From a virus: a DNA stretch of 64,000 bases. The notes below the pieces were generated by a model. That model was not told the origin of the DNA. It worked only from the letters and a program-made list of their open reading frames with translations, and ran no database searches. This document shows positions 4,680 through 64,000 of the stretch, piece after piece. A program made the translations under genes and the position numbers. The stretch spans positions 22,835 to 86,834 of IMG/VR virus record IMGVR_UViG_3300044999_000022; one strand, written 5' to 3'. Position 1 is the first letter of the stretch. Every line of letters begins with the position of its first letter.

Positions 4680-5191
4680 CTGGCCCGCTCCAGCACCCGA
4701 CGTCCGCACTGGTAGCTGCGTCATGGATCTCGGAAATGATCAACTTCCCGCGCAGTGGTATTAGTACACAGTTGCCTCAGGATTCGCTGACCTGGCCGGC
4801 GTTTCAAGACCTGTACGGCTCGAGCCAGGAGATCCGCCAGTTCATTACGGTTAGGGTTGTCGGCGGTACTCCTCAGCTAGACGTCCCTGTAGCCAAGCCA
4901 GTCGTTGACGTTGCGTGCTTTGCGACCAAGCCGACGTCAAATAAACCCCCATGGTTTGCCGCGGCGCAGACCATGGAGCTGATCCGTCTTGCTACTTACA
5001 ATCGCACGCTAGGCCAATTCGGCCGGGCGTTGACGATCGGGGCGGGCAACGTAAATTATAACAGCGCGCGGGTCAACCAGGCCTGCATGTACACAGAGCC
5101 CCGACAGCTTTTCGGGGACGCTCGAAACTACGCGATCTACTCGGCGGACCTTCGCTTGACCTGGGTGGAGATTGGATACGTGTTGCAATGA
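4676..5191 (+). CDS. Tail terminator
   Basis: FITVRVVGG..., VxxxC(F/W)A, terminal Y.ADL.L.W pattern; synteny before major tail. Confidence 0.6.
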   Translation: MTGPLQHPTSALVAASWISEMINFPRSGISTQLPQDSLTWPAFQDLYGSSQEIRQFITVRVVGGTPQLDVPVAKPVVDVACFATKPTSNKPPWFAAAQTMELIRLATYNRTLGQFGRALTIGAGNVNYNSARVNQACMYTEPRQLFGDARNYAIYSADLRLTWVEIGYVLQ

Positions 5192-7733: not shown

Positions 7734-10700
7734 GTGGCTGGCGGTTTTAAGATAGCAGATGCGTACGTCGATGTCGAGGTTAACGAGGACACGCTCGATG
7801 CGGCGATTGCAGCTGCACAGGCGAAGCTGGCGGCCATTAAGGACCGCGCGGTTGCTGTCGGCCTGAGCAAGGAGTCCATGACGGCGTTGGCGGCGCAGAT
7901 CAAGGCCGTCAATGGAATGCTGGCTAATCTTAAGGGCCGCGCAGATATCAGCCTGAACGCCTCCGAGCTGATTGCGCAGATTGCGGCTATCCAGAAGCTC
8001 ATGGATAGCATACAGACGAAGTTCAACATCCAGGTTGACACAAAAGATCTATCGAGCGCGTTTAAGGACGTTGCACTAAGCGCAACCGCCGCCGGTGTAG
8101 CGGTCGTCACGATGGGCGACCGGACGGAGCAGACCCTTGGCACACTGTTCCCTGTGATGAGCCAGTGGATTCAAGGCTGGGGCGTCATGCGAGGGAACGT
8201 CCAGCTGTTCGCGGGCGTACTTACGCAGCTCGGCCTTCCAGCGTTTATCGCGTCTGCTTCAGCGCTCCATCTTATAGTTGACTCCGCATTTGAATTGGCG
8301 TCCGTCCTGATCCCTGCAACGATCGGGATCATAGCATTCGGACTTGCAGCAGCTCCGACGCTTGACGATATCGCGACAAAGATGAGGGCAGTCTGGGTAA
8401 CTTCAACCGCACTGCAGACTACCATCTACCCGCTGAGCGGCGCGTTTGCTCAGATGGAGAATGCTGTCAAGCCGGACGTCATCGAGGGGTTCGGTGAGGC
8501 GCTAGTCCTTGTTAATGACAAGACTGGCGAGTTTATCGCCCTTGCGAGGCAGGCGGGCACGGTTATACTGCAGCTAGAGACCCGCATGGTCACTGCGTTG
8601 GACTCGAGCGGTCTGAGCCAGTTTACCAAGAACGCTGCTCAGGACCTGTCCTTGCTCGGCAACATCATTGGCAACATCTTTGGCATTATCGGTAACTTGC
8701 TCCACGCGGTTCCAGGGTACGCTCAGGTCTTGTTTCAGGCGCTACAGAACTTTACAGGCGCGCTCGAGGCAATTACCTCAAACCCGATTGTGCAATGGAT
8801 CCTGCAGCTAGGACTAGCAGTTCACGGTGCGCTACTCTGGCTGGGTCTTGGAGCGACTGCCGCGGTATACTTCGGCAACGCGTTGATAGGACTGGCGGCG
8901 AAGTTCGGCTTGGCCGAAGAAGGCGCGCTAGCCTTTGACTCGATCCAGTTCGGTACCGGTCTGCTATTGATGTTCTCCTATGTTGGGGATCTTGCGGTTG
9001 CGCTAGTCACGTTTGCCGGCGCGGAAGATATTGCAACTGCTGCTACTGGATCCTTTGATGCGGCCCTAATAGTACTAGACGCTGTCAACCCGTTGGTTTG
9101 GGTTGGGGCGGTTGCGGTAGCACTAGGCGCCCTTATCTATTGGCTGACCCGGTCTACGTCCGCTACGCAGTCGTACAATACAGCCGTTAATTCGGCACTC
9201 CAGAATGCGCCGGTCAGCCAGTTTAGTATTGACCTGACGAAAGAGATGTCGGCTACCATTGGACAGCTATCAATTGCGCAGGTTCAGCTGGCCAATACCG
9301 CCAAGCCGCTAGCAGGCGGCACTCCGCAGCAGATCGAGCGGAGTACTGCAGCCTATCAGGCGCAAGTCAATGTCGTGAAAGGTTATCAGGGCGAGCTACA
9401 GACGCTCCAGACCTACCAAGGGAACTATAACACCCTGCTCAAGGCCTCCGGGAACAATCTTAGCTTTCTGAATACGGCCGGTATCACGTCGAACATGATT
9501 GTCGGCGCGAGCGCGCAGCAGCTGAAGGAATACGTCATCGAGGTCAAGGCTGCAGCTGATGCTCAGGAGGCCTTGGGGCTTGGGACCGGCCGAGCTGCAG
9601 CAGCGCAGAACGCGCAGACCAACATCTTCATGACGGAGACCGTTCCGGCACTGCAGAAGGTGACACAGGCCGAGACCGCAGTCATTACGATGATTACGGG
9701 CGGCCAGCTGGCTGTCGACAACTTCCAGCAGGGTATGGATACTCTGGCGCAGAACTTCATTGCGGCCTCTGGCAGCGGCGCTACGGTAACGTACACTCTG
9801 GACCACATTAAGAGCTCGGCGAACTCTGCAGGGGCTGCGCTAACTGGGACTAGCCAAGCCAGCTACGCGTTGAACCAGGCGTTCTATCAGCAGATTAACA
9901 ATGCACAGAGCGCTATCAACTCGCTACAGGGCATGGGGGCGAGTACCAGCGACCTCACACCTATCATTGGTACGATGGCCGCGCAGATGAAGGGGTTTGC
10001 AGGCAACAACGTCGAGGCGAATTCGACCATCGTTGCCTTGATCAATAACGCGCTTGGTCCTGGCACCGTTTCGCTTCAGACCTTGAATGGTTGGCTCAAG
10101 ACTAACAGTACCACGCTGCAGGGCATGGATGCGGATGTCGCAAAGATTACGATCGACGCAGCCGCGTTTGCCGGCGTGCTGAATCAGGACGTGAACGCGG
10201 CGCTGTCAGCGTCTATCATCCAGGCAGAGGGCGGCCAGAAGGCCTTTGACCAATTCGCGACAGGCGTCTATACCGGTAACACGGCCAGTAACACATTTAA
10301 GGCTTCGGGTGTACAGGTCATTTCGATGCTGCTCCAGCAGTCCGGTAATAGCTTGCCGAAGACGCGCAAGGCTTTCGAAGACTACACTAACAGCCTGGGG
10401 CTGAGCAAGGGCGCCTCAGACGCCCTGTGGACTTCGTTGAAGAATCAGTTGCTTGACCAAACGGCAACGAAGGCAGGGGAGACCCGATCAGCCTTTGTGC
10501 AATTCGCAACGCAGCTTGGCCTGACAAAGAAGGGCGCGGACAATCTGTGGGACTCGCTCCATAAACTAACCGGGGGCAGTCCATACAAGTTGAGCCTGAC
10601 CGAGACCGGTCAGGGTACATTCATCATTAACGGTAACGTCGCGCCTACGCCGTCCGGTGGAGTACCGCTTACCACTGCCGTAACACATCCTGCGCACGCC

Positions 10701-48969: not shown

Positions 48970-50633
48970 GTCCGTCCACCTCCTCCCTTTATTTTTTACC
49001 TATAATTTAATTTTACCATACCACCCGAGTAAAATCTAGTCCTCTCTTTCGTCGTCTTCTTTGAACTTGTCCCGGAGCCGCTTCTTCGTGAGCGCCCTTC
49101 CGAGTTGCCACTCCACGTCCGCGATAATCAGTGCGAGCCAGAAAATCAGCACACTGTACCAGTTTCCAGGCCCGAAAAAGGCTGCTAGAGCCATCAGTAC
49201 GTTGATCGCAGCAAACGTGTCGTAGATGTTCCATCCTGCGTCGTCGAAACGCTTTCGCCACTTCATCTTGCCTCCTCCCACCGCCGCGCAGGGGCCGCAT
49301 TGCACCTGGGCTTCCCTGCGCGACGGTGGCCTGACGCATCGATGCCTGGCCACATGCTACGGTAAGCGGCCGATATTGTAGGGCCTTTGCCACGGCAACC
49401 AACCGCGGAGGTATGACAACCCCATGACGGGCCTCCTTTCTCTCGGTGAAGGGCCTTGGCGCCGCCTCTGGGCGCCGCTCTCCCTTCAGGAGACTGCTCG
49501 AGCCATGCTGGTAGGCGCTTCCAGGCACCTAACTCGAGCAGTCCGCTCAAGGGAGCTACCTGTCAGGGCTGAGATCCTCCCCTTCGGCAGTTTCTCCCGG
49601 GCGTCTGTGCTTTGAGCAGCTCGCACAGCCAAACATGGCGCGTAGCCGAACAGTGGGGCCTGAACGGCCAGGCCGCGTAGAGCCTGATCATGAGTTCCAT
49701 TGCTTCTCCTAGCGTGGCCACCAGTACCACTTACCGCCCGTGAACTTCACACGGGCGCCACACTTCTTGACGTCGCGGCACTCCAGGACCTTGCCCTCTT
49801 CGTTAGGTCCCGGGTCCGCCTGAATAGTGGCTACACAGCACTTAAACATGCCGCTAACTTGGATCGTGCTCCCGATAGTGTCGCTCTGCATCAGAGCTTG
49901 CACCCCCTGCTTAGTTGCTCGCCTCTATCGTCGAATGTCCCTGAGGCTGCCCGGCGCCCGACACCGTCGCGCGAATTCTGAGTGCCCGGGCGATATCTCC
50001 GCTCGAACCGTGTCCCACATGGGTGCCTCCAGTGTCGCGGCGTCTGCCGTGCCAGGTGCGCTTCCACCGCTGAAGCTGGCCGCTACCCCGGTTGAGATAC
50101 CGTACCGGTACGGTGTTACTCACGCTTGACCCACCTTCCGTCTATCAGGATGTGACCATCCTCGATCATCGCCTTTGCGGTCGCCTGTATCTCGAGCTGG
50201 CCGCCCGGCCCTATACCCATGACCGCATAACCGTGCCGGACCATCTTGACCAGCATCAGGTCGATCACGGCGTTCTGACCGCCCGGCCTGAACGCGTCCG
50301 TATGGCCGCCGGTCATGATGACCTGCACGGCCTTGTCGGTATCTAGCTGAACTGTATCTTCGGGCCACGGCATCGCCGGCTCGTTCATTTCGGAGCCCTC
50401 CGGGCGACATAGCAGGCAACGTCGCCGTCTACCAGCTCGATGCTCTTGATCCACCTTGGGTCCAGGGACTGTGTTCCGGCCGCCGGGCGGGCGCTCCATT
50501 CGAGCTCACCAGTCCCGGTCGACGCCGGCCAGAGGTAAACCAGGACGCTTTCGCGGTCATAGAATTGGACGCCGGGAATGCGGTACCGGACTCGGTACCG
50601 CTTCCCCCGCTCCAGTTGGCGTATGTCCATCGT

Positions 50634-50972
50634 TTAGTGCGCCTGGTACCACTCGCGATAGTCCAGCGACAGCCGGCCCTTCGGGTCGAGCTGCATCGAG
50701 ATGCGAATCTGGTCCTCGCGAACCTGGATGCCGGTCCACTTCGCGTCGCCGAACTTCGGACTCGAGACCGAGCCTTCATGCTCGCCTTCGCGGTCACCCC
50801 ACGGCAGGGCTGCGAAGACCTCCTGCGCGGAATCGCCGGCGTCCCACGCCTCCTCGAGCTCGGCCGTGACCGCCTTGAGCCAGTTGATGTACCGGCTGGT
50901 CAGCGGCGTGCGGTAACCCTTTCCAGGGCGCAGCTCCTCGCTGTCGACGTCAGTCGTTGCTGCTTCTTGCAT
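50634..50972 (-). CDS. PC4-like protein, paralog 1
   Basis: IRIS.....G...LDYREWY; paralog of 62607-62927. Confidence 0.55.
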   Translation of the reverse strand: MQEAATTDVDSEELRPGKGYRTPLTSRYINWLKAVTAELEEAWDAGDSAQEVFAALPWGDREGEHEGSVSSPKFGDAKWTGIQVREDQIRISMQLDPKGRLSLDYREWYQAH

Positions 50973-51375
50973 GACTGCTCCTTCGTTACCGGATGTCTAT
51001 CCGGCGTCACCGGCGAATGCTCGTCGGGGTACCGATCCCGGCCTCCGCGTTCGGGATCGGCACCTCGTCGGACATGCCCCGAGTTTCTTTCCTTGTTACT
51101 TTATTATATCCCAGGCCCCTATTGGAAATCAAGTCCTCGATTAAGGACAATTGCCGCACCTACAGCCTTCCCGGTGAAGCACTACTGTATGCGCTGCCTG
51201 ATAGGCTATCCGATCGTTAATCTCTTCTAGGCGTGCGACGCGCTCTATGGTCTCCTCGAGTTGCTGCCTTAGCTCGTCTATTTCCCTTACGGCTTCCTCG
51301 TCCACTCCGTACCTCCTGCATGCTGAACCGGAGCTGGCGAGGTCTGGGCCAGCTCCGGTTCGGATTCAGTTGTAA

Positions 51376-51787: not shown

Positions 51788-52660
51788 CTACTCGGCCTCG
51801 GCGCTGGCCAGCTCCTGCTCCTTCCCGGCCTCGGCAACGGTACCGGCGGCCGCCTCGGCGGTCTGAGCGGCCCGCTCGGCCTGCTGCGCGGCCTTCCTGG
51901 CCCGACGCGCGGCCGCCTTCGCGGACTCGATCTGGCGGGCCAGCGCGCGGGCGACATACTCGGTTGCCCACTCGTAAGCGCTGTTCGGCTCCACCACCAT
52001 CCGGTCGGTACCGTCGTCCGACTGCGTGGTGTCGAACTTGCCCTTATCCGCCATGATGTACATGAAGGGGGAGCCGATTTCCTTCGGCCCGGTACCGGCG
52101 TCGTTCAAAACCCCGGCCTCCTTCAGCATCTCATTGACGACCTCGGTGAAGGCGTACGGCGTCAGGAGCTTCGCGCGCCGGCCCTTCTTGGTGTCCTTCT
52201 CGTCGGCGTCCTCGTCGGCCTCGTTGTTGAGCTCGTCATCGTCGAGCTCGTCCTCCGGGGCCTCCTTGGGCGTACGGAGCGGCGTCTGGTCGACGACTTC
52301 ATCGTCGTCCTCGTCGTCATCGTCGTCCTCGTCGTCCTCGTCGTCCTCTTCCGGCGCTGCCGGCTCGTCGACGATCTCGGCGTCCACGACGCCCTCGGTC
52401 AGCTCGCCGACCGGCTCGAGCAGCTGCTCGATCTCTGCGACGGTCTCGTTCGGATCGGTCGAGCCGCCACTCTCGCCCGGCTCGAACGACTGGCCCTCCT
52501 CGGGGTCGTCGTCCTTGACGGCGTCCTCATCGGCCTGGCGCAGCTCCTCCGCTGCGGGCTGCTCAACCTCGCCACCCGCTTCGGTGATGCTCTCCTGGAG
52601 CGTGTGCTCCAGGTCCTCGGGCGGAGTCGCCCTGTTACTACGTGGTCCCCTGTTACTCAT
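51788..52660 (-). CDS. Very acidic protein with C-terminal HTH-like domain
   Basis: Poly-D/E tract; LTPY....SPFMYI...KGKF shared with 61497-62159. Confidence 0.7.
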   Translation of the reverse strand: MSNRGPRSNRATPPEDLEHTLQESITEAGGEVEQPAAEELRQADEDAVKDDDPEEGQSFEPGESGGSTDPNETVAEIEQLLEPVGELTEGVVDAEIVDEPAAPEEDDEDDEDDDDDEDDDEVVDQTPLRTPKEAPEDELDDDELNNEADEDADEKDTKKGRRAKLLTPYAFTEVVNEMLKEAGVLNDAGTGPKEIGSPFMYIMADKGKFDTTQSDDGTDRMVVEPNSAYEWATEYVARALARQIESAKAAARRARKAAQQAERAAQTAEAAAGTVAEAGKEQELASAEAE

Positions 52661-53225: not shown

Positions 53226-53735
53226 TCAGAAGCTGGTTTGGCCTTGCCACTCGATGAGAAACTCCGCCTGGTTGATGAAGGCCCAGACGATCGAGAGGCC
53301 GTAGTACGTGAAGGCGAGGTCCTCCGACGCGTGGTACGGGCCGTCGGGGGACTCGGAGACCAGCTCCTCGCCAGTCATCTCGACATGGACGCCCTTATAG
53401 GTCAGGCCGCGAGCCTCCCAACTCTGGACCCTATCCACGGCTCCCCTGAGCGAGACGTCTGAAAGCCTGGCCTGTGCTACCAGTCCAGCGAGCCCCTCCT
53501 CACGCAGGATGACGGGCCCGAGGCTTTCCTGCAGGAGGTCCTCCTCCGGCTTGTTCGTGATCAACATCCAGCCGGTCAGGTCCATCTTGACCTGATACAC
53601 ATCCGGACGCGCAAGATACGGCCTCGTAACGAAGTCCGCCTGCGGGCCCGGCTTCTTGACTGGCACGCCATCCCCTTCCCGAGACACCCAACTTGAGTGC
53701 TCGCCACTGGCGATTGCCTTCGTGCCAATCGCCAA
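53226..53735 (-). CDS. Hypothetical protein
   Basis: ORF with arm-consistent strand; start uncertain. Confidence 0.45.
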   Translation of the reverse strand: MAIGTKAIASGEHSSWVSREGDGVPVKKPGPQADFVTRPYLARPDVYQVKMDLTGWMLITNKPEEDLLQESLGPVILREEGLAGLVAQARLSDVSLRGAVDRVQSWEARGLTYKGVHVEMTGEELVSESPDGPYHASEDLAFTYYGLSIVWAFINQAEFLIEWQGQTSF

Positions 53736-54714
53736 TGGCCAACAGTCAGTTAGTGCTCAGAGCGACTTCCAGCGCCCCTAGCCACTCGCCGCCATCCGGG
53801 CTCCAGAAGATGGCACCGAACTCGACGGTGTAGTTACCGTGAGTCGGGCACGGCTCTCCGGTAATCTTAGGGGCCGGGATCTGTATCTCGGCCATCCTGT
53901 CCCACATCAGAGCGCTCCCGGCTCAGGGCCCGCTACGGCGTTGATCACGAGCGCGTCGCCTTCTCGCATCTTGAGGAGTAGCGCGACTACCCGGCTGCTC
54001 ATGAGGTAGTTCTCTTGCTGCTCGTCTTCACCGGGCTTGACGATCTCGACGTTGTACCGAACGCTCATTCCGTTTCTCCTTTGACGATCAGGCCGCCCCT
54101 GCCGTCCTCACCCAGAACGCCTAGGCGTTCCAGCTCGAAGACGTGCCATAGTATGTGAAGCGTGAACTGTTCGTCAGTGAGTTCATCGAACATGGGATCG
54201 TCAAAGTTCGGGCACTCTTCCGACGGCTTGCCGCTGAACGGGCACTTTTCCAGTGCGGGTGTATACTCTAGCCCGGCCATCCGTGCTCCCGTAGTGCTTC
54301 GAAGATCGCGTCCGAGCACCTCATAGTCGACCATGTATTGGCGCCGCAGGGCGCCTCGGCGTCCTCCTTCTGGGCGTCCTCACGATCTTCATCGTACTCG
54401 TCCGAGTCCTCATCAGGACAGCTCGCGATGAAGGCGACTTCAGCCGGACCCATGCTGCTGGCATCTGCGTCCGCGGTGAGACACTCCGCGATGTACTTCC
54501 AGTCATCGACTCGGAGTGTTACGCTCATGAGGTCCTGATCGGACAGGCCCTCAGGGTCGGTGCGGATGTAGTGAGAAGTGCTCATGAGTTGTCCTCCATT
54601 TGAGCCTTGAGGTGTCTGTGCGCCTCTCGCGCATATAGGGGCATCCCCACCTTGTCTAGCGCCCGTAGGAGTGCTTCCCACTCGCTACGCGGGAGCGTTA
54701 GCGCCACGAACTCT

Positions 54715-55245
54715 TCAGGATTCATTTGCCGGCCTCCATTCCGGATACTTGTCGCCGGGGCTTCTCGACTTGGTCGTCTTGGAGGGATAGTTACCGTTCG
54801 GGTGCTCGCAGTTGCCGCCGACGTTCAACGTCAACCCTTCCGGCGAACGCCTGATCGGTGTCGGTCGAGCATCAGGCGTGTAGATTGCCTTGATTCCGTT
54901 TGGTGTCTGCGAGTTCACAGCCCGCATGCGCGGGGATGCCATTCGGGTAACTCGTGGCTGCCGCCGGTGTGTCGGGTTCGGCGCTCGGGACTGCTGCTTG
55001 CTGACCCGTATGAGCGTCTGCATGAACTGTTCTTTGGTCATGACCGGCCTGAACTCTGCCGGCTCTGCAGGCTTCCGAACGTAGTTGACGAACGGTGCGG
55101 ATTCTTCCGCGGTGCCTGTAGGCCTAACTGACTTCGGCCTCGAGCTCGTCGTCTTCGGTTTCGGCTGTTGCGTCGTGATCCGATCGGGTACCTTCGTCCC
55201 GTCGGACATCGCTGCGCACAGCTTCAAGAAGGTCGACTTGTCCAT
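54715..55245 (-). CDS. Basic low-complexity hypothetical protein
   Basis: GGAGGGGAG RBS. Confidence 0.45.
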   Translation of the reverse strand: MDKSTFLKLCAAMSDGTKVPDRITTQQPKPKTTSSRPKSVRPTGTAEESAPFVNYVRKPAEPAEFRPVMTKEQFMQTLIRVSKQQSRAPNPTHRRQPRVTRMASPRMRAVNSQTPNGIKAIYTPDARPTPIRRSPEGLTLNVGGNCEHPNGNYPSKTTKSRSPGDKYPEWRPANES

Positions 55246-55525: not shown

Positions 55526-55805
55526 CGTTCAGTTGCTTGATCGCCTCCAGTAGCCGTCTGGCCCTGGCGGGATCCTTAGGCACGTACGGTAGCACTGACA
55601 AACCGTTCTTGATGGGCCTATACTTCTTAGCCCTCCCGGCATGGTCATACGAGTAGCTACCCTGCGGAGGAAGGACAATGCGCCCAGTACCCGTTGTGCT
55701 CCTATGAGTCGGACGCCTTGCTGACGCCTGACCCTCTGGTGGATCCTCATCCACTGGCTCACCTCCCTTCCAATCCGACCTCGTCCTGTCGAGGCCGAAC
55801 TGCAC
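55452..55805 (-). CDS. Hypothetical protein (start probably GTG ~55755)
   Basis: YVPKDP.RA..LLEA motif shared with 58118-58459. Confidence 0.5.
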   Translation of the reverse strand: MQFGLDRTRSDWKGGEPVDEDPPEGQASARRPTHRSTTGTGRIVLPPQGSYSYDHAGRAKKYRPIKNGLSVLPYVPKDPARARRLLEAIKQLNDEREEAAREMEQSRRREGVEVDLQ

Positions 55806-55815
55806 CGGAGATGTT

Positions 55816-55893
55816 TACTTGTTTCTTTTTATTATATCATAAGGCCTTGAGGACCTGACAATAGGCCACCCCCAATCTTTATCTATTATTCAT
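55816..55893 (-). promoter_or_regulatory. Early promoter repeat A
   Basis: ATGAATAA box; CCTA-TTGTCA-19bp-TATAAT; A-rich leader. Confidence 0.8.
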
Positions 55894-56798: not shown

Positions 56799-57202
56799 AA
56801 AACTCCCTACTTTTGACAGGGCGGCTCTACGTGAGAAGCCCGGTCAGAATTACCAGCACTGCTGCCGCGATGAGGACGCCTATGGCTTCACGGGCTGTCA
56901 GCATCATCGCACCTCCCTTCCGATCCAGCCTCTCGCGAGAGGCTGAACCGCACTGGAAGTGCTACGCGTCGGGGTCGACGCCGTGATGTCTGGCCATCAT
57001 CTTGATGAACTCGACGTTCCAGTTCTGCCGCTGCCCGCGCTCGGTGCAGGATGCGAGCATCTGCGCGAGGAACAGGTACCGCAGCTGGATGTCGTCCGGC
57101 GTGAACTGGCCGGTGAACTTGTCGAGTACCTCTGCCGAGGCCTGATTGGCGAGGAGTGTGATGAACTCCTCGTTGTCCTTCAGTACACCTGACGGGCTGT
57201 TG

Positions 57203-57529
57203 TCAGTCATTGGTCTTCTCGTCCTCGTCATAGTAATCGAACCTGCCGGACGCCAGCAGGCGCTTGCACGCGTGTTGGAGCCTGAGCTCGGCGCGGTCGC
57301 GCGAGTCGTAGTCCTCCTCGTTGGAGGGCATCATGTTCGCGAAGGCCTGGTCGCCGATCATGAGCGCCCTTGCGAGGAACTCCTGGAACGGCTTGAACAT
57401 GTCCCGGAGTGCCTCGCTGTCGTTGAACTCGTCCTGAACGCGGTACCTCAGGGCCTCGAGGATCTCCTCGACGTCCCTGCGGTCCTCGCCGGTGAAGTCC
57501 TTACTGGTGTCGACCGGCTGAGCGGTCAT
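57203..57529 (-). CDS. Hypothetical acidic protein
   Basis: AAGGAG RBS. Confidence 0.6.
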   Translation of the reverse strand: MTAQPVDTSKDFTGEDRRDVEEILEALRYRVQDEFNDSEALRDMFKPFQEFLARALMIGDQAFANMMPSNEEDYDSRDRAELRLQHACKRLLASGRFDYYDEDEKTND

Positions 57530-57794
57530 GGAGGTGCTCCTTCAGTGTGGGGGTGAAGTCGGACTGCTTCTGCGTACTCGCGCGCCCGTCTTCGCCGACG
57601 TTGTGAACCTTGTCGGGCTCGTACCGCGTAACCATACCGCCGAACTCGTCGGTCATAGTCATCGCGACAACTCGCATGCCCGAGCCTCGCTCGGCACCCT
57701 CGTCGACCATCTCCTCCACGGCCATACCAAAGTGCCCGAGCTGATCGAAATCAGCACTGACTTGCTCGATTTCGATTACGAGCTTCGTAGCCAC
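57501..57794 (-). CDS. Hypothetical protein
   Basis: AAAGGAG RBS after a two-hairpin element. Confidence 0.55.
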   Translation of the reverse strand: MATKLVIEIEQVSADFDQLGHFGMAVEEMVDEGAERGSGMRVVAMTMTDEFGGMVTRYEPDKVHNVGEDGRASTQKQSDFTPTLKEHLHDRSAGRHQ

Positions 57795-58034
57795 TGTGGC
57801 TCCTTTCTGAAACGCTCCTACGAGCGCTCCGAGCTACGCATGTTGTGCGTAGCTCGCAACGTTCGTATGATTGTCTCCCGCCTGATGCAGTCCATCGTGC
57901 AAGGTGTCCAAGTACTCATCGCTATGCTCGTCCAGCCCGCCATCGAAGGTCGGATGCAAGTTGTGAATGCCTGTTAGGTGTGCAACCTTTTCTGCGTGCG
58001 CGCTCATGCTCGTCTCCGTTCGTTGTGCCTATGC

Positions 58035-58125
58035 ACGTTATTTTTATTCTTCTTTTATTTTTATTATATCACAAGTCCCCTAGGGACTAACAATAGGCCG
58101 CTTCGATTATTCATATATTATTCAT
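58035..58125 (-). promoter_or_regulatory. Early promoter repeat B
   Basis: ATGAATAA-N3-ATGAATAA; CCTA-TTGTTA-19bp-TATAAT; ~39 nt identical to repeat C. Confidence 0.8.
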
Positions 58126-59731: not shown

Positions 59732-59744
59732 CACTCTCCCTTCC

Positions 59745-59808
59745 CGAACGCCTACCGTTAGGCGAACGTGGCGCGGTGCGGTCGCATTCCGCACCTCACC
59801 ATGATCGT
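59745..59808 (-). repeat. Intergenic two-hairpin cassette element
   Basis: CATGGTGAGGTGCGG-AATGCGA-CCGCACCGCGCCACG then CGCCTA/TAGGCG, then RBS. Confidence 0.7.
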
Positions 59809-60069
59809 CTAGCAGCCTGAGACCGAGCCACCCTGCGACTGACAGTACGCAGGCGTGCTACTACTTGTAGAGGTGCCTAGCGTGCTGGCCACCTTGGAGA
59901 CCTGCACCCCAATGATGATCCCGCAGATGACGCTGAACAAGACACCGATGCCGATCACGATCGCGATGAACTTGGTCGCTGCGGCGGTCGTCCGCGCGTT
60001 GTTAAGCATTGCTATCTGCCACTCGGCCTCCGTCATCGGAGGGCGCGCGTAAGGCTGGTTCATAGTCAT
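59809..60069 (-). CDS. Single-TM membrane protein
   Basis: Hydrophobic segment; C-terminal C.SQGG....C. Confidence 0.6.
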   Translation of the reverse strand: MTMNQPYARPPMTEAEWQIAMLNNARTTAAATKFIAIVIGIGVLFSVICGIIIGVQVSKVASTLGTSTSSSTPAYCQSQGGSVSGC

Positions 60070-60147
60070 TATTGCCTTCCCGGATGTCGCTCCTTGCAAA
60101 CATCCTGGAATGCGCCCCCTTCGCGAAGGCGCAAACCAGGCGGTTCG

Positions 60148-60594
60148 TCAGCGCGCGCGGTGCGCGTTCACGATGGCGGTTATGTCTCCGCCCTCGGGGT
60201 GCTCCACTAGAAACGCGCTGATCGCATACATAGCCTCATGGGCTGACTCGTGACGCTCGCCTGTGAAGCCGGCACCGACCCAGACGGTCCCGCCTCCCGT
60301 TGAGGTAACGATGCGGTTGGACAAGGTATTGTAGACATAAACCATACCGCCGCCTTGGAGCATGTGATCGGAGTGGCCTGCTGTCTTGGCCTCCTCGCGA
60401 TTCGCTACCGCGGACTCGATGATATAGAACCTGCACGCAGGATCGTATAGCTCCTGATGTGCCTTGGCAGGCTTCGTTGGAACGATCGTGAACCTGCGGT
60501 CGACCGGCGTGGCCTTCCTACGTGTCTCGCGTTCGTCTGCCTCACGCAGTTCCGCTTCGACCAGTTCGGCCCGCAGTTGTGCTGCGGTCTTCAT
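60148..60594 (-). CDS. Hypothetical protein
   Basis: AAGGAGG RBS. Confidence 0.6.
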   Translation of the reverse strand: MKTAAQLRAELVEAELREADERETRRKATPVDRRFTIVPTKPAKAHQELYDPACRFYIIESAVANREEAKTAGHSDHMLQGGGMVYVYNTLSNRIVTSTGGGTVWVGAGFTGERHESAHEAMYAISAFLVEHPEGGDITAIVNAHRAR

Positions 60595-60682
60595 GATGCC
60601 TCCTTGCCTAGTGGCCACGGAATGCTGTTGAACCGCAGGTCGTTTATCACGACCCATACCTCTTTGGGCATGCTGCCTCCTA

Positions 60683-60973
60683 CTAGAAGTCGATACCGAA
60701 CAGGCCCGCGAGGTACCGCGATCCTGTTATTGCTTCAGCGTGGTCGCCGCCGTCATGGACGTCGTCAGCCATGTTCGAGATGAATGCGCGGAACGAAGAC
60801 TCGAAGGTCATGTGAGTGAAGTCCTCGTCATAGCGGTACTCATCAACGTAAGCGACCATGAACGCGGCGTACTCGTCCATCGTAATACGAAGGACGATCT
60901 GCATCGCTGTGGCCTTTTGTTCCTGAAGGTCCGCCATAGCGGCCTCTAGGAGCTTACGTGCTTCTAGTGACAC
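60683..60973 (-). CDS. Hypothetical protein
   Basis: AAAGGAGGAG RBS after cassette element. Confidence 0.6.
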   Translation of the reverse strand: MSLEARKLLEAAMADLQEQKATAMQIVLRITMDEYAAFMVAYVDEYRYDEDFTHMTFESSFRAFISNMADDVHDGGDHAEAITGSRYLAGLFGIDF

Positions 60974-60981
60974 TGCTCCTC

Positions 60982-61061
60982 CTTTCCTGCACGCTACAAG
61001 CTGTAGTCGTACATGGCGTCGGGGTAGACACCTTCGCATGCCTACCCCGCACCATGAGCGG
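60982..61061 (-). repeat. Intergenic two-hairpin cassette element
   Basis: Near-duplicate of 61418-61496 with compensatory stem changes; GCGAAGG loop. Confidence 0.8.
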
Positions 61062-61409
61062 CTAGGCGGACTTGTTGGTCACGGTGATCGAGTACGTCCC
61101 CTTCTTGGTCCAGTGCTGCAGGACCTCATGGGACCACCAGTGCGGGTAGGCCAGCTCGTTTTTGTACAGCACCTCATCGCTGTACGCGCCGGTCGAGTAC
61201 GCCGTAGTGCGGTGCTCCCACTCCCGGTAGGCGTGGCCGCAGGCGTGCTTGGTCAGCCACTCCTGCGAGACCGTCCCGGTCGAGGCGGTGCTGTGCTCAT
61301 ACTTGTGCGTCGTGGTGCACGTTGCCGCACTCGCCGGCCCCGCTCCCGCAAGAGCAACGCCCCCCGCGAGGATCGCGGTTGCCGTCAGGCCCGCTAGGGT
61401 CTTACGCAT
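61062..61409 (-). CDS. Secreted His/Thr-rich protein
   Basis: MRKTLAGL...PASAA signal peptide. Confidence 0.65.
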   Translation of the reverse strand: MRKTLAGLTATAILAGGVALAGAGPASAATCTTTHKYEHSTASTGTVSQEWLTKHACGHAYREWEHRTTAYSTGAYSDEVLYKNELAYPHWWSHEVLQHWTKKGTYSITVTNKSA

Positions 61410-61417
61410 GCTGTTCC

Positions 61418-61496
61418 TTTCTTGCACGCTACAAGGTGTAGTCGTACATGGCGTGGGGACGATCACCTTCGCCTGACCGTCCCCCACCATGAGCGG
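61418..61496 (-). repeat. Intergenic two-hairpin cassette element
   Basis: CATGGTGGGGGACGGTCA-GGCGAAGG-TGATCGTCCCCACGCCATG then CTACA/TGTAG, then RBS. Confidence 0.8.
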
Positions 61497-62159
61497 TTAC
61501 TTCTTGTTGGCGTCCGCGGTCGCCTTGGCGGCCTTGATGCGGAGCTGCCTGAGGTTGTGCTCGTTCATCCAGTTGACGAACGCCTCGATGTCCGTGATCT
61601 CCATACGGCCATCGGCGGCGTGTCCGACGGGGAACTTGCCCTTGCCCGCCTGGATGTACATGAACGGGCTGTTGACCGTCCCCAGACCCGCGTCCACGCG
61701 TGCCTGGTTGAAGATCTTCGTCGCCTGGTACGGCGTGAGGACGAACGGCTTGCGGTGCTTGCCGCCCTTGACCTTGCCCTGCGGGGTCTCTTCGGGCTGT
61801 CCGGCCGTAAGGGCCTTCAGGGCCTCGTCGAAGAGGCCACCCTCGCCGGTCTCGTCCTCGAGGGCCTCTTCGGCCTCGTCCGTCGTGGACTCCTCCGGCA
61901 GGGTCTCGTCGACGATTTCGCCCTCGAGCACCTCAGCGGTGTCCGCGAGTACCTCGTCGATGACCTCGGCCGCCGTCGGCGTCCACAGCTCCATGCCGGT
62001 TCCCACTACGGTGGTGGTCTTCGGCGCCTGCGGGCGGGTCCTGCGGTTACGTGCTGGCATTGTCTTGCCTTTCTGTTGTGACGCCCCTTGCGGACGCCCT
62101 GCAACGTACATCGCTAGTGTACGCTCTAGGTCGTCCGCAATGGTTGTCTGCCCTGACAT
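61497..62159 (-). CDS. Acidic protein with HTH-like domain, paralog of 51788-52660
   Basis: AAGGAGGTG RBS; LTPY...SPFMYI...KGKF. Confidence 0.7.
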   Translation of the reverse strand: MSGQTTIADDLERTLAMYVAGRPQGASQQKGKTMPARNRRTRPQAPKTTTVVGTGMELWTPTAAEVIDEVLADTAEVLEGEIVDETLPEESTTDEAEEALEDETGEGGLFDEALKALTAGQPEETPQGKVKGGKHRKPFVLTPYQATKIFNQARVDAGLGTVNSPFMYIQAGKGKFPVGHAADGRMEITDIEAFVNWMNEHNLRQLRIKAAKATADANKK

Positions 62160-62192
62160 CGTTTCTCACCTCCTTTCGTTACGCCCCTGGGG

Positions 62193-62283
62193 ACGTTATT
62201 TTTATTCTTCTTTTATTTTTATTATATCACATGTACCGCGGGGCCTATCAATAGGGCACCCTGATTATTCATATTTTATTCAT
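62193..62283 (-). promoter_or_regulatory. Early promoter repeat C
   Basis: ATGAATAA-N3-ATGAATAA; CCTA-TTGATA-19bp-TATAAT. Confidence 0.8.
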
Positions 62284-62289
62284 CTACAC

Positions 62290-62362
62290 CCTTCTCGGTA
62301 CGTTTCTTACAAACGTCCGCGGCGAGGTACGGCCTTCGCGCACCGTACCTCACCGTGCACGC
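62290..62362 (-). repeat. Intergenic two-hairpin cassette element
   Basis: CGGTGAGGTACGG-TGCGCGAAGG-CCGTACCTCGCCG then ACGTTT/AAACGT, then RBS. Confidence 0.75.
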
Positions 62363-62606
62363 TAGTCGGTCGCGTCTATCGACCACCCATCAGGAGTGGC
62401 CGGAAGGCCGATTGCCTGCTCTTCACTGACGACCTCGAACGTCAGCACCTCGCGTCCGTGCTCGTCCTTCATCGTGACGATCTGAGGGTACGCCATACCA
62501 GTCCTCCTAGAGCATTGCTTCGATTGACGGCCACTGCAGGATGGTCAGGAGCATGTCCCAACCGAAGTGAACTACGGGGATGATGAACGGGATGATTGGC
62601 CACATG

Positions 62607-62927
62607 TCAGTGCCTCGTGTAGAACTCGCGATAGTCGACCGTGAGGTCGCCCTTGGAGGTCAGGTGTACCGAGATGCGGAGCTCGTCCTCACCGAACTCG
62701 TACGCGATCCACTTGCGGTTACCGTACTTGTCGTTCGCGCGGTTCGTCCACGACAACTTACGGAACAGCTCCTCAGGAGTGTCACACACCTCCCAAAGTG
62801 CCTCGAGTTCGGTCATCGCGTTCTTCACGAACCGGAGGTATGCCGCATCCATCTGGATGCGGAACCCCTTCGGACTCGCGTATAGGACCTTGTTTGAAGA
62901 GGTCCCAGAAGGGTTTGTACCTTGCAT
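62607..62927 (-). CDS. PC4-like protein, paralog 2
   Basis: ELRIS.....G...VDYREFY. Confidence 0.55.
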   Translation of the reverse strand: MQGTNPSGTSSNKVLYASPKGFRIQMDAAYLRFVKNAMTELEALWEVCDTPEELFRKLSWTNRANDKYGNRKWIAYEFGEDELRISVHLTSKGDLTVDYREFYTRH

Positions 62928-62939
62928 GGTACGTTCCTT

Positions 62940-63011
62940 TCTTTTCGAACGTTACTCTTGTAGTAACGGTCGCGGCGAAGGTACGGTCGCATCCGCACCT
63001 CACCGTAATCG
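62940..63011 (-). repeat. Intergenic two-hairpin cassette element
   Basis: CGGTGAGGTGCGG-ATGCGA-CCGTACCTTCGCCG then CGTTACT/AGTAACG, then RBS. Confidence 0.75.
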
Positions 63012-63612: not shown

Positions 63613-63649
63613 CTCCTCTCGTCGCCGTACATCGTCCCGATGTACTATA

Positions 63650-63734
63650 TTTTTATTTTTCTTTTATTTTTATTATATCATACGTCCCTAGTGTCCTATC
63701 AATAGGGCACCTCGAATATTTATATATTATTCAT
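63650..63734 (-). promoter_or_regulatory. Early promoter repeat D
   Basis: ATGAATAA box; CCTA-TTGATA-19bp-TATAAT; A-rich leader. Confidence 0.8.
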
Positions 63735-64000
63735 GCAGGGCATTTAGTGAACGGCCGCCCCGATCCCCGCGATGCACAGCGCGAGTACGAGCAGCGATAG
63801 GAGTACGACCAGGCACCCCGCACACCCTCCGGTGCATCCCTTAGAGGTTCCGGTTGTCTGCCCTGAGGTATTCTTGTACGTCCTCATGTTCGTTTTCCTT
63901 TCTATCGTGACTCATTGATGGACCGGATGGCCGCTAGGAGACGTTCCCGTCGTCCCGCGTCCCTAGGGAGGTAGGACACTAGCGGTAGTCCATTCCTCTT

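What the first reader, a model, noticed from the sequence alone, without database searches (positions are those of the whole stretch)
59745..63011. Early genes separated by a covarying family of two-hairpin RNA cassettes
Seen: after many stop codons comes a long bulged hairpin (often (C/U)A(C/U)GGUGAGGU.CGG...CCG.ACC.CGCC) with a GCGA(AGG) loop, then a short hairpin, then the next RBS. Copies lie at 59745, ~60090, 60982, 61418, 62290 and 62940, with looser ones at ~50990, 53165, 56920, 57810 and 58470. The 60982 and 61418 copies have near-identical flanks but different inner stems that still pair (GGGGACGGUCA/UGAUCGUCCCC vs CGGGGUAGGCA/UGUCUACCCCG), so structure is under selection. Established: T7 and SPO1/SP82 early mRNAs are cut at intergenic RNase III stems. 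Inference: processing/stability cassettes, boxB-like antitermination sites, or recombination handles for shuffling single-gene modules.
Basis: partly seen in the sequence, partly recalled or inferred. Interest (0 to 1): 0.75.

Follow-up and report, generated by a model that had tools for sequence, protein, structure and literature searches.

The report
Two-hairpin RNA spacers between phage genes
Between some early genes of this soil phage lies a conserved pair of RNA hairpins, in the spots where related phages carry self-cutting hammerhead RNAs, so it probably marks where the long early message is cut and stabilised gene by gene.

Summary
On the minus (coding) strand, six gaps between genes (w59732-63011) each carry a long bulged hairpin, a short hairpin and then the ribosome-binding site. 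Five form a strict family. A covariance model scores them 49.7-57.4 bits, against 19.1 for the next sense-strand hit. 7 of 18 pairs show changes on both sides, and 95.1% of cells pair (0 of 500 shuffles reach this). Copy E and the "looser" copies are real hairpins but not members.

No Rfam family matches. The same outer stem (AYGRUG...YRYCRYG) occurs in 17 copies from four related uncultured phages, always on the sense strand, with a U-G wobble in all 17.

A fifth relative has type II hammerhead ribozymes in these gaps, and so does the cultured Streptomyces phage Yara.

There is no U-tract, the stem base is weak, and a ribosome at the upstream stop does not unmask the ribosome-binding site.

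Best reading (0.5): RNA-level punctuation that sets and protects mRNA ends. The cutting agent is unknown. Leaky termination, protein binding and self-cleavage remain open. Gene-content breakpoints in relatives fall at these gaps.

Earlier notes of this scan describe the same hairpin-for-hammerhead pattern on other phage DNA.

The parts
62971..63007 (-). Cassette A, hairpin 1. The outer stem is GGUG/CGCC with a U-G wobble and an A opposite UU. The inner stem has 7 bp and the loop is AUGCGA. It starts 7 nt after the stop codon of gene w63012-63341.
   Evidence: R1 scores it 49.7 bits.
62944..62972 (-). Cassette A, hairpin 2 (GUUACU/AGUAAC). It is followed by the RBS GAAAGGAAC and the ATG of gene w62607-62927.
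   Evidence: -10.6 kcal/mol, z -3.45.
62318..62357 (-). Cassette B, hairpin 1. It lies after gene w62362-62496 and directly upstream of promoter module P2.
   Evidence: R1 scores it 57.4 bits. Model R2, built only from relatives, scores this copy (hit w62300-62362) 25.6 bits, E 2.8e-6. The ortholog in G003 scores 34.1 bits with R1.
62296..62319 (-). Cassette B, hairpin 2 (ACGUUU/AAACGU). An RBS-like GAGAAGGG follows, although no gene follows before P2.
   Evidence: -8.7 kcal/mol, z -3.26. Sequence.
61447..61491 (-). Cassette C, hairpin 1. The outer stem is CAUGGUG/CGCCAUG, with a bulged A on the 3' side. The inner stem has 11 bp and the loop is GGCGAAGG. It lies after the 220-aa gene w61497-62159.
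   Evidence: R1 scores it 55.0 bits.
61424..61446 (-). Cassette C, hairpin 2 (ACG-CUACA/UGUAG-CGU). It abuts hairpin 1. The RBS and the ATG of the secreted 115-aa gene w61062-61409 follow.
   Evidence: -7.0 kcal/mol, z -2.60.
61012..61056 (-). Cassette D, hairpin 1. It has the same flanks as C but a different inner stem that still pairs.
   Evidence: R1 scores it 55.0 bits.
60989..61011 (-). Cassette D, hairpin 2. The RBS GGAAAGGAGGAG and the GTG of gene w60683-60973 follow.
   Evidence: -7.0 kcal/mol, z -1.77.
60082..60147 (-). Element E. It has the same layout: a long hairpin with internal loops, a second hairpin and then the RBS. Its loop contains GCGAAGG. It is not a statistically supported family member.
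   Evidence: R1 scores it 10.6 bits, E 4.6.
59767..59803 (-). Cassette F, hairpin 1. It has an A/G mismatch, a 7-bp inner stem and the loop AAUGCGA. It lies after gene w59809-60069.
   Evidence: R1 scores it 51.7 bits. This is the only one of the six cassettes whose antisense strand folds as well as the sense strand (-29.4 against -30.2).
59744..59768 (-). Cassette F, hairpin 2 (CGCCUA/UAGGCG). The RBS GGGAAGGGAG and the ATG of gene w59312-59731 follow.
   Evidence: -11.4 kcal/mol, z -3.17.
62200..62290 (-). Context: promoter module P2. It has the palindrome CCCTATTGATAGG, the extended -10 TGATATAAT, an A-rich leader, then a small hairpin and the RBS. Near-identical modules lie at w63640-63740 (P1), w58008-58117 (P3) and w55800-55889 (P4).
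   Evidence: Sequence and motif scan. The reading as a promoter is by eye.

Best explanation
The cassettes are RNA-level punctuation of the long early transcripts made by host RNA polymerase from the repeated strong promoters.

Hairpin 1 sits 3-8 nt after a stop codon and acts as the protective 3' end of the upstream message. Hairpin 2 abuts it (0-5 nt) and lies a few bases before the ribosome-binding site. It acts as the protective 5' end of the downstream message. The ends are produced at or between the two hairpins, most likely by a host endoribonuclease. RNase III acting at the irregular lower stem is the leading candidate.

Each gene or short gene block thereby gets its own stability and dosage.

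Shown here: the structures, their strand specificity, covariation, conservation of position and outer stem across four phages, and hammerhead ribozymes in the same gaps in relatives.

Inferred: that RNA ends form here, which enzyme makes them, and the effect on stability.
For: (1) The structure is real and selected. 7 of 18 pairs change on both sides, and 0 of 500 shuffles reach the observed pairing. The outer stem on 17 copies from four phages has two covarying pairs, CG 13 / UA 4 and GC 9 / AU 8.

(2) It works as RNA, not DNA. In the early regions the descriptor finds 16 sense and 0 antisense copies, and copy F adds one more sense copy. The U-G wobble is invariant in 17 of 17 copies. The sense strand folds better in 5 of 6 cassettes and in 12 of 14 intergenic hairpins.

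(3) The slot is equivalent to that of self-cleaving RNAs. Relative G004 has 7 type II hammerheads with full cores, 7 on the sense strand and 0 on the antisense. Six of them begin 2-11 nt after a stop codon, and all end 11-42 nt before the next start. Rfam scores are 26.9-35.9 bits, E 3.8e-7 to 9.1e-5 per genome, all below the gathering score of 37. A hammerhead cut there leaves a 3' hairpin on the upstream RNA and a 5' hairpin before the RBS. That is the same layout as hairpin 1 plus hairpin 2. The homolog of the 220-aa gene is followed by cassette C here and by a hammerhead in G004. Cultured Streptomyces phage Yara has hammerhead cores in 7 of 9 gaps examined. Perreault et al. 2011 (PMC3088659, passages read) proposed that such arrays cut phage transcripts into single-gene mRNAs.

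(4) Position is conserved while genes diverge. The secreted 115-aa gene (33-37% identity) is preceded by a cassette in three phages. The 106-aa gene is preceded by one in two phages.

(5) The same short hairpin followed by the RBS also follows the promoter leaders. This fits a 5'-end role for hairpin 2.
Against: No RNA end data exist for this phage. No sequencing run was listed, so cleavage is wholly inferred.

Hairpin 1 of A, B and F has only 12-14 bp. That is short of the roughly 20-22 bp of idealised RNase III substrates (Nicholson review, PMC3867540). Only C and D reach 18-19 bp.

A shared slot with hammerheads does not prove a shared function.

Four copies sit just before a promoter-like module. 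That fits a terminator equally well.

Hairpins without a U-tract do mark in vivo 3' ends in Streptomyces (PMC8269248). That is compatible with termination or with trimming.
Confidence: 0.5

Rival explanations
1. These are leaky intrinsic terminators or attenuators without a U-tract. On this reading hairpin 1 stops a fraction of polymerases after each gene block, giving a stepwise fall in expression away from each promoter. Hairpin 2 would be incidental or part of the next leader.
For: The hairpins lie directly after stop codons. Four copies lie just upstream of a promoter-like module. Tail-less terminators were reported for the phiC31 early region (Ingham 1995; only the title was seen in a reference list, and the paper is not held). 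Structured 3' ends lacking U-tracts are a class in Streptomyces Term-seq data (PMC8269248). Phage operons often hold many internal terminators (PMC11512511, abstract only).
Against: None of the cassettes has a U-tract, and the consensus terminator scan flags none of them (17 sites found against 13.0 +/- 3.5 in shuffles). The base of the stem, which should be strong in a terminator, is the weakest part. It has an A-C mismatch in 13 of 17 copies, an invariant U-G wobble, and a G-U pair in 9 of 17. Purified mycobacterial RNA polymerase did not terminate at hairpins lacking U-tracts, with or without NusA or NusG (PMC3993855, passages). Hammerheads in the same gaps of relatives cannot terminate transcription.
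Confidence: 0.2
2. The cassettes are binding sites for a sequence-specific protein, either phage or host. That protein could be a dedicated endoribonuclease, a translational repressor or an antiterminator, recognising the conserved outer stem (A-C mismatch plus U-G wobble) or the loop.
For: The outer-stem sequence AYGRUG/YRYCRYG and the 5' flank (CGAUC) are kept across four phages whose early proteins are mostly unrelated. GCGA is present in all six loops here. A conserved wobble pair is a common recognition feature (own knowledge).
Against: The loop motif is not kept in the relatives' copies. No RNase III or dsRBD gene was found in five genomes; the one weak hit scored 12.9 bits. The ten early proteins match no Pfam or PHROG family. 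Six proteins are shared with the three cassette-bearing relatives and missing from the hammerhead-bearing one. One of them, the 106-aa early protein, gave nothing in the Atlas or the PDB. Many copies per operon, including copies at unit ends, argue against nut- or put-like antitermination.
Confidence: 0.12
3. The cassette is itself a small self-cleaving RNA of an uncatalogued class, standing in for the hammerheads of sister phages.
For: It occupies the same gaps as hammerheads. Conserved nucleotides flank a variable hairpin, and the wobble is invariant. Proximity to known ribozymes is how twister-sister, pistol and hatchet were found (Weinberg 2015, recalled, not read).
Against: All the conserved positions lie in an ordinary helix. 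The linker between the hairpins is short (0-5 nt) and shows no conserved nucleotides. No pseudoknot or multi-helix junction emerged. No ribozyme family matches, even at E up to 5. The hammerhead model scores 12.9 bits at best in this genome.
Confidence: 0.07
4. These are DNA-level recombination linkers. On this reading, conserved short sequences at gene borders exist to promote exchange of single-gene modules between co-infecting phages.
For: 11 of 16 G003/G002 block boundaries lie at the structured gaps (P = 0.0013). One cassette is 88.9% identical over 63 nt between G003 and G001, where the flanking genes show no DNA similarity. Cassettes appear to travel with the downstream gene.
Against: The strict strand bias, G-U wobbles and compensatory changes point to selection on RNA, not on duplex DNA. 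Mosaic joints at gene borders are expected without any special element. Exchange is better seen as a by-product.
Confidence: 0.05

Closest known systems
Intercistronic RNase III processing signals of T7 early mRNA (R0.3-R1.3) and of SP82/SPO1 early mRNA. This rests on my own knowledge; the RNase III substrate rules come from PMC3867540, passages read.
   Same: Both are a family of related, irregular hairpins between early cistrons of host-transcribed polycistronic RNA. In both, internal loops or mismatches in the stem direct cutting of one strand, which leaves a stabilising 3' hairpin.
   Different: Cleavage has not been shown here. The stems of A, B and F are only 12-14 bp. There is a constant second hairpin before the RBS, an invariant U-G wobble, and exchange with hammerheads in relatives.
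Clustered hammerhead ribozymes flanking single genes in prophages and phages (Perreault et al. 2011, PMC3088659, passages read).
   Same: They occupy the same slot (after a stop codon, before the RBS) with the same spacing, and they occur in the same phage lineage (G004, Streptomyces phage Yara). The hairpin-cut-hairpin product layout is the same.
   Different: The window's cassettes lack the CUGANGA/GAAA core. The best hammerhead score in this genome is 12.9 bits, E 0.47.
ESAS/SAS elements of Cluster K mycobacteriophages (Pope et al. 2011, PMC3203893, passages read).
   Same: Both are actinophage elements. Both have an inverted repeat with a variable spacer immediately upstream of a conserved start-proximal sequence, before a subset of genes, in one orientation. 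Both are kept with the downstream gene family across genomes. The function of ESAS/SAS is unknown.
   Different: ESAS arms have a conserved 17-bp sequence. Here the inner arms vary and covary, which points to RNA structure. No sequence similarity was tested.
Tail-less (I-shaped) terminators of actinobacteria and the phiC31 early region (Ingham 1995, title only; PMC8269248 and PMC3993855, passages read).
   Same: Both are GC-rich hairpins without a U-tract after early genes of an actinophage.
   Different: Here the stem base is weak. Recombinant mycobacterial polymerase needs a U-tract. These elements also have a second hairpin and share their slot with ribozymes.

Membership tests
T7/SP82-type RNase III processing signal | Lies between cistrons of a polycistronic early transcript | tested here: met
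   All six lie in gaps between same-strand genes downstream of the repeated promoters. The gene model comes from my own script.
T7/SP82-type RNase III processing signal | Double helix of about two turns (about 20-22 bp), often interrupted by an internal loop at the cut site | tested here: inconclusive
   C and D have 18-19 bp with a bulge 7 bp from the base. A, B and F have 12-14 bp. Hairpin 2 abuts hairpin 1 and could stack on it (inference). The rule comes from PMC3867540.
T7/SP82-type RNase III processing signal | Cut by host RNase III | not testable with these tools
   No RNA run was listed. The phage carries no RNase III or dsRBD gene of its own.
Canonical intrinsic terminator | U-tract directly 3' of the hairpin | tested here: not met
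   The sequences after hairpin 1 are GCGACC, GCGGAC, UACGAC and ACGUUC. The terminator scan flags none of the cassettes.
Canonical intrinsic terminator | Strong G+C-rich base of the stem | tested here: not met
   Near the base there is an A-C mismatch in 13 of 17 copies, a U-G wobble in 17 of 17 and a G-U pair in 9 of 17.
Hammerhead ribozyme, type II (RF02276) | Core CUGANGA ... GAAA ... UH with three helices | tested here: not met
   The best match in G000 is 12.9 bits, E 0.47, and it is not at a cassette. G004 scores 26.9-35.9 bits with full cores.
Any Rfam family | Match at the gathering score or a convincing E-value | tested here: not met
   There are 0 matches at gathering score in 64 kb. 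In w49000-64000 only four chance-level miRNA or sRNA matches appeared at E up to 5.
Lambda nut (boxB) / HK022 put antitermination RNA | One promoter-proximal copy per operon with a conserved loop or bulge that is recognised | tested here: not met
   There are five or six copies in 3.3 kb, none directly after a promoter, and copy B lies at a unit end. The loop motif is not kept in relatives.
Translational-coupling anti-SD hairpin | A ribosome at the upstream stop codon frees the downstream SD | tested here: not met
   The probability that the SD is unpaired changes by 0.09 or less upward in A, D, E and F, and falls from 0.90 to 0.72 in C. The separate family at w56908 rises from 0.26 to 0.69.
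Cluster K ESAS/SAS | Conserved 17-bp inverted-repeat arms plus a 13-bp start-associated sequence | not tested
   I read only the description. No Cluster K sequence was compared.

The most novel reading that the evidence does not exclude
The two-hairpin cassette, with its conserved AYGRUG/YRYCRYG stem, invariant U-G wobble and abutting second hairpin, is either a new class of self-cleaving RNA or the substrate of a dedicated, still unidentified endonuclease. On this reading phages of one lineage swap it freely with hammerhead ribozymes as equivalent gene-by-gene mRNA cutting modules.
Probability: 0.1. Interest if true: 0.9.

Novelty: new variant of a known kind. Interest (0 to 1): 0.58.

Why it matters
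Why phages place hammerhead ribozymes between their genes has been an open question since 2011.

Here one lineage fills the same gaps either with hammerheads (G004, and the cultured Streptomyces phage Yara) or with a plain, conserved two-hairpin RNA (this phage and three relatives). If the two are interchangeable, the job of the ribozymes is simply to make hairpin-capped single-gene messages, and host enzymes can do the same job at the hairpin cassettes.

That can be tested with two-gene reporters in Streptomyces or Mycobacterium.

The cassettes would also be compact insulator and stability parts for operon design in high-G+C bacteria. They also mark where these phages exchange genes.

Tried and rejected
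**Expression data.** The look-up of sequencing runs listed no RNA holder and no run at all for w59000-64000.

**Close relatives by DNA.** There was no match in 'phages' in near or distant mode.

**Relatives through early genes.**
- The 220-aa early protein found none in viral contigs.
- The alignment of the secreted protein (A6) found only G002 and G003 again.

**DNA patterns.**
- The promoter pattern gave 0 hits in viral contigs.
Only one locus, the G003 contig, held real cassettes and the rest were chance.
- The A/B/F-type pattern gave 6 loci, all unrelated (coding DNA or a tRNA arm).
- How far the family spreads therefore remains unknown.

**Other checks.**
- Translational coupling by SD unmasking is rejected for this family.
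- No phage-encoded RNase III or dsRBD was found.
- The search for a candidate partner protein by phyletic pattern led to the 106-aa early protein, which gave nothing in the Atlas or the PDB.
- Streptomyces phage KimJongPhill has no hammerhead. Its best R2 hit (17.8 bits) lies inside CDS 84.
- Ingham 1995 could not be read.
- I did not ask for supplementary files. Perreault 2011's hammerhead alignments (Dataset S1) may already list Streptomyces-phage examples.
- My searches listed no paper on hairpin cassettes standing in for hammerheads. That covers only those two searches.

Full report
**Setting.** The window is bases 22835-86834 of an 86,834-bp phage record with about 59% G+C. Virion genes run on the plus strand up to about w20400. 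Everything from w20437 to the right end is on the minus strand, according to my own codon-usage gene caller, which predicts 153 genes.

The phage has no DNA match among 50,697 phage records. Its terminase is 40-43% identical to those of cultured Streptomyces phages. It is 56-77% identical to 16 IMG/VR contigs, four of which are 78-80 kb (handles G001-G004).

The ten early proteins around the finding match no Pfam or PHROG family.

The region is driven by near-identical promoter modules. Each has a palindrome, TGATATAAT and an A-rich leader. They lie at w63640-63740, w62200-62290, w58008-58117 and w55800-55889. I read these as promoters by eye.

All six fold far better than shuffles (z -2.3 to -5.24). 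The short hairpin folds on its own in 6 of 6 copies, each time with a different stem sequence.

A simple descriptor finds five of them within 3.3 kb. The whole genome on both strands gives 7 hits, against a mean of 0.81 and a maximum of 6 in 100 simulated genomes.

On the five-copy alignment, 95.1% of cells pair and 7 of 18 pairs change on both sides. No shuffle of 500 reaches the observed values, and sliding the partner drops pairing to 28.6-53.6%.

The flanks agree at 14/15 and 42/48 positions and the loop at 7/8. The inner arms agree at only 6/11 and 5/11, yet both pair.

A covariance model of the five (R1) scores them 49.7-57.4 bits. The next sense-strand hit scores 19.1 bits and copy E scores 10.6. 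The strict family therefore has five members.

Copy E shares the layout and the GCGAAGG loop but is not a supported member. The "looser" copies at about 50990, 53165, 56920, 57810 and 58470 are other hairpins.

No Rfam family matches.

**It is an RNA feature.** The sense strand folds better than the antisense in 5 of 6 cassettes and in 12 of 14 intergenic hairpins tested. Copy F and w51306 are the exceptions. The reason is G-U pairs, which become A-C on the other strand.

**Relatives.** I fetched the early-gene ends of four relatives. They share only scattered proteins with the window, at 24-50% identity. Their gaps are nevertheless filled with the same kind of element.

A descriptor for the outer stem (AYGRUG, a paired inner stem, YRYCRYG) finds 5, 2, 5, 0 and 4 sense copies in G003, G001, G002, G004 and the window. 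Copy F was missed by the lazy pattern. No antisense copy was found in any of them.

Over these 17 copies the outer stem has the following features:
- an invariant G-C pair;
- an invariant U-G wobble, 17 of 17;
- two covarying pairs, CG 13 / UA 4 and GC 9 / AU 8;
- an A-C mismatch in 13 copies, which is A-U in the other 4.

The ten copies of the G001-G003 subfamily pair at 98.6%, with 5 pairs changed on both sides.

The two subfamilies detect each other. R1 hits G003 at 34.1 bits. R2 was built only from relatives, and it hits copy B of the window at 25.6 bits, E 2.8e-6.

Position is conserved too:
- The secreted 115-aa gene is preceded by a cassette in the window (C), in G003 and in G002.
- The 106-aa gene is preceded by cassette A here and by a cassette in G001.
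- Copy B and three copies in relatives sit just before a promoter-like module (by eye).

**Hammerheads in the same gaps.** G004 has no AYGRUG cassette. Its gaps hold type II hammerhead ribozymes instead.

Rfam's model gives four matches at 26.9-35.9 bits, below the gathering score of 37. Their E-values are 3.8e-7 to 9.1e-5 per genome.

A core descriptor finds 7 on the sense strand and 0 on the antisense. Six of them start 2-11 nt after a stop codon, and the seventh starts 145 nt after one. All end 11-42 nt before the next start.

Two more copies carry a CCGAUGAG core (by eye).

The homolog of the window's 220-aa gene is followed by a hammerhead in G004 and by cassette C here.

G000-G003 have no hammerhead. 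The best match is E 0.47.

The cultured Streptomyces phage Yara has hammerhead-II matches at 21.2-29.2 bits in four annotated gaps. The core words occur in the right order in 7 of 9 gaps examined.

A hammerhead cut in this arrangement leaves the upstream RNA ending in the stem III hairpin. The downstream RNA then begins with the stem I hairpin just before the RBS. That is the layout of hairpin 1 plus hairpin 2.

Perreault et al. 2011 noted such arrays in prophages. They suggested that the arrays cut long transcripts into single-gene mRNAs.

**Mechanisms tested.**

*Terminator.* No cassette has a U-tract and the scan flags none of them. The stem base is the weakest part. Recombinant mycobacterial polymerase needs a U-tract (PMC3993855). 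Against this, structured 3' ends without a U-tract exist in Streptomyces (PMC8269248), and four copies precede promoters. A leaky-terminator role therefore stays open at about 0.2.

*Translational coupling.* A ribosome modelled at the upstream stop codon changes SD accessibility by 0.09 or less upward in A, D, E and F, and lowers it in C. In a separate anti-SD family (w56908) it raises accessibility from 0.26 to 0.69.

*Antitermination.* The copy number, the positions and the non-conserved loops argue against it.

*RNase III.* The irregular lower stem fits the rule that mismatches direct a single-strand cut that leaves a stabilising 3' hairpin (PMC3867540). The stems of A, B and F are short, however, and the phages carry no RNase III of their own.

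*Self-cleavage.* Nothing beyond a helix is conserved, and no ribozyme model matches.

*Recombination.* Between G003 and G002, 11 of 16 homology-block boundaries fall in or within 10 nt of the structured gaps, which cover 29% of the sequence (P = 0.0013). Between G003 and G001 only three short stretches of DNA similarity survive, and the best is one cassette at 88.9% over 63 nt. I read this as a consequence of conserved islands at gene borders, not as their purpose.

**Verdict.** The cassettes are best read as RNA-level punctuation that defines and protects the ends of single-gene or few-gene messages (0.5). The cutting agent is unknown.

The kind is known from T7 and SP82 RNase III sites, from phage hammerhead arrays and perhaps from Cluster K ESAS. 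What is new:
- the RNA family itself;
- its invariant wobble;
- its constant second hairpin;
- its exchange with hammerheads within one lineage.

Earlier notes of this scan describe the same hairpin-for-hammerhead pattern on other phage DNA. I found the link independently and did not test those notes.

**Limits.**
- The gene calls and the promoter readings are my own.
- All function is inferred.

Noticed in passing
window 56908-56961 and 55757-55820 (minus strand); also L019 sense 8629-8683, L020 2182-2242, L021 6348-6417, 6721-6803 and 6972-7026, L022 8566-8626: There is a second conserved gap element. Right after a stop codon (or in a promoter leader), CUYCC/CACUUCC pairs with the downstream SD GGAAGGGAGG across a covarying hairpin. 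A ribosome modelled at the upstream stop raises SD accessibility from 0.26 to 0.69. It looks like a translational-coupling device and is kept in all five phages.
   Followed up: partly
window 63640-63740, 62200-62290, 58008-58117, 55800-55889 (minus strand): Near-identical promoter modules. Each has the palindrome CCCTATTGATAGG over the -35 region, the extended -10 TGATATAAT, a conserved A-rich leader of about 30 nt, and then a small hairpin and the RBS. The palindrome looks like an operator. Another note of this scan (e1-6131746) covers the same modules.
   Followed up: partly
Streptomyces phage Yara MH019215.1, gaps at 52132-52213, 52499-52583, 53361-53489, 53976-54489, 54838-55084, 57208-57294, 57672-57762: The record annotates no type II hammerhead ribozymes. 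Seven of nine gaps between small hypothetical genes contain GGACGAAAC...CUGANGAGUCC cores. This is a cultured system for testing what phage hammerhead arrays do.
   Followed up: partly
Hairpin loops in L019, L020 and L021 (for example L019 sense 4700-4779 and 9931-10002), window 51306-51375, and Yara hammerhead stem III loops: A recurring loop word, CCCAG or GCCAG(C), appears on otherwise unrelated stems. It is also in the stem III loops of 3 of 7 Yara hammerheads. It has no known role in hammerhead catalysis. It may be a shared protein or tertiary contact.
   Followed up: no
G000 genome 5351-5488 (outside the window); L020 10088-10223 and 10550-10664: Another conserved structured gap motif: CCCCUGAACGUCC, a long hairpin, then GGRCCUUGAKGG before an RBS. 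It occurs in two phages.
   Followed up: no
window 49267-49708 (minus strand): A 442-nt gap with no credible ORF and a very stable predicted fold of -213 kcal/mol. An Rfam miRNA-type chance hit lies at 49274-49329. It is unexplained.
   Followed up: no
L022 about 1195-1250 and 1945-2005: Two hammerhead-like copies in G004 carry CCGAUGAG in place of CUGAUGAG, a change at core position U4. They may be slow or dead ribozymes kept in the same slot (by eye).
   Followed up: no
window 62607-62927 and 50634-50972 (minus strand): The 106-aa early protein after cassette A has a paralog in the window. It has homologs in the three cassette-bearing relatives but none detectable in hammerhead-bearing G004. 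No fold or family was found for it.
   Followed up: partly
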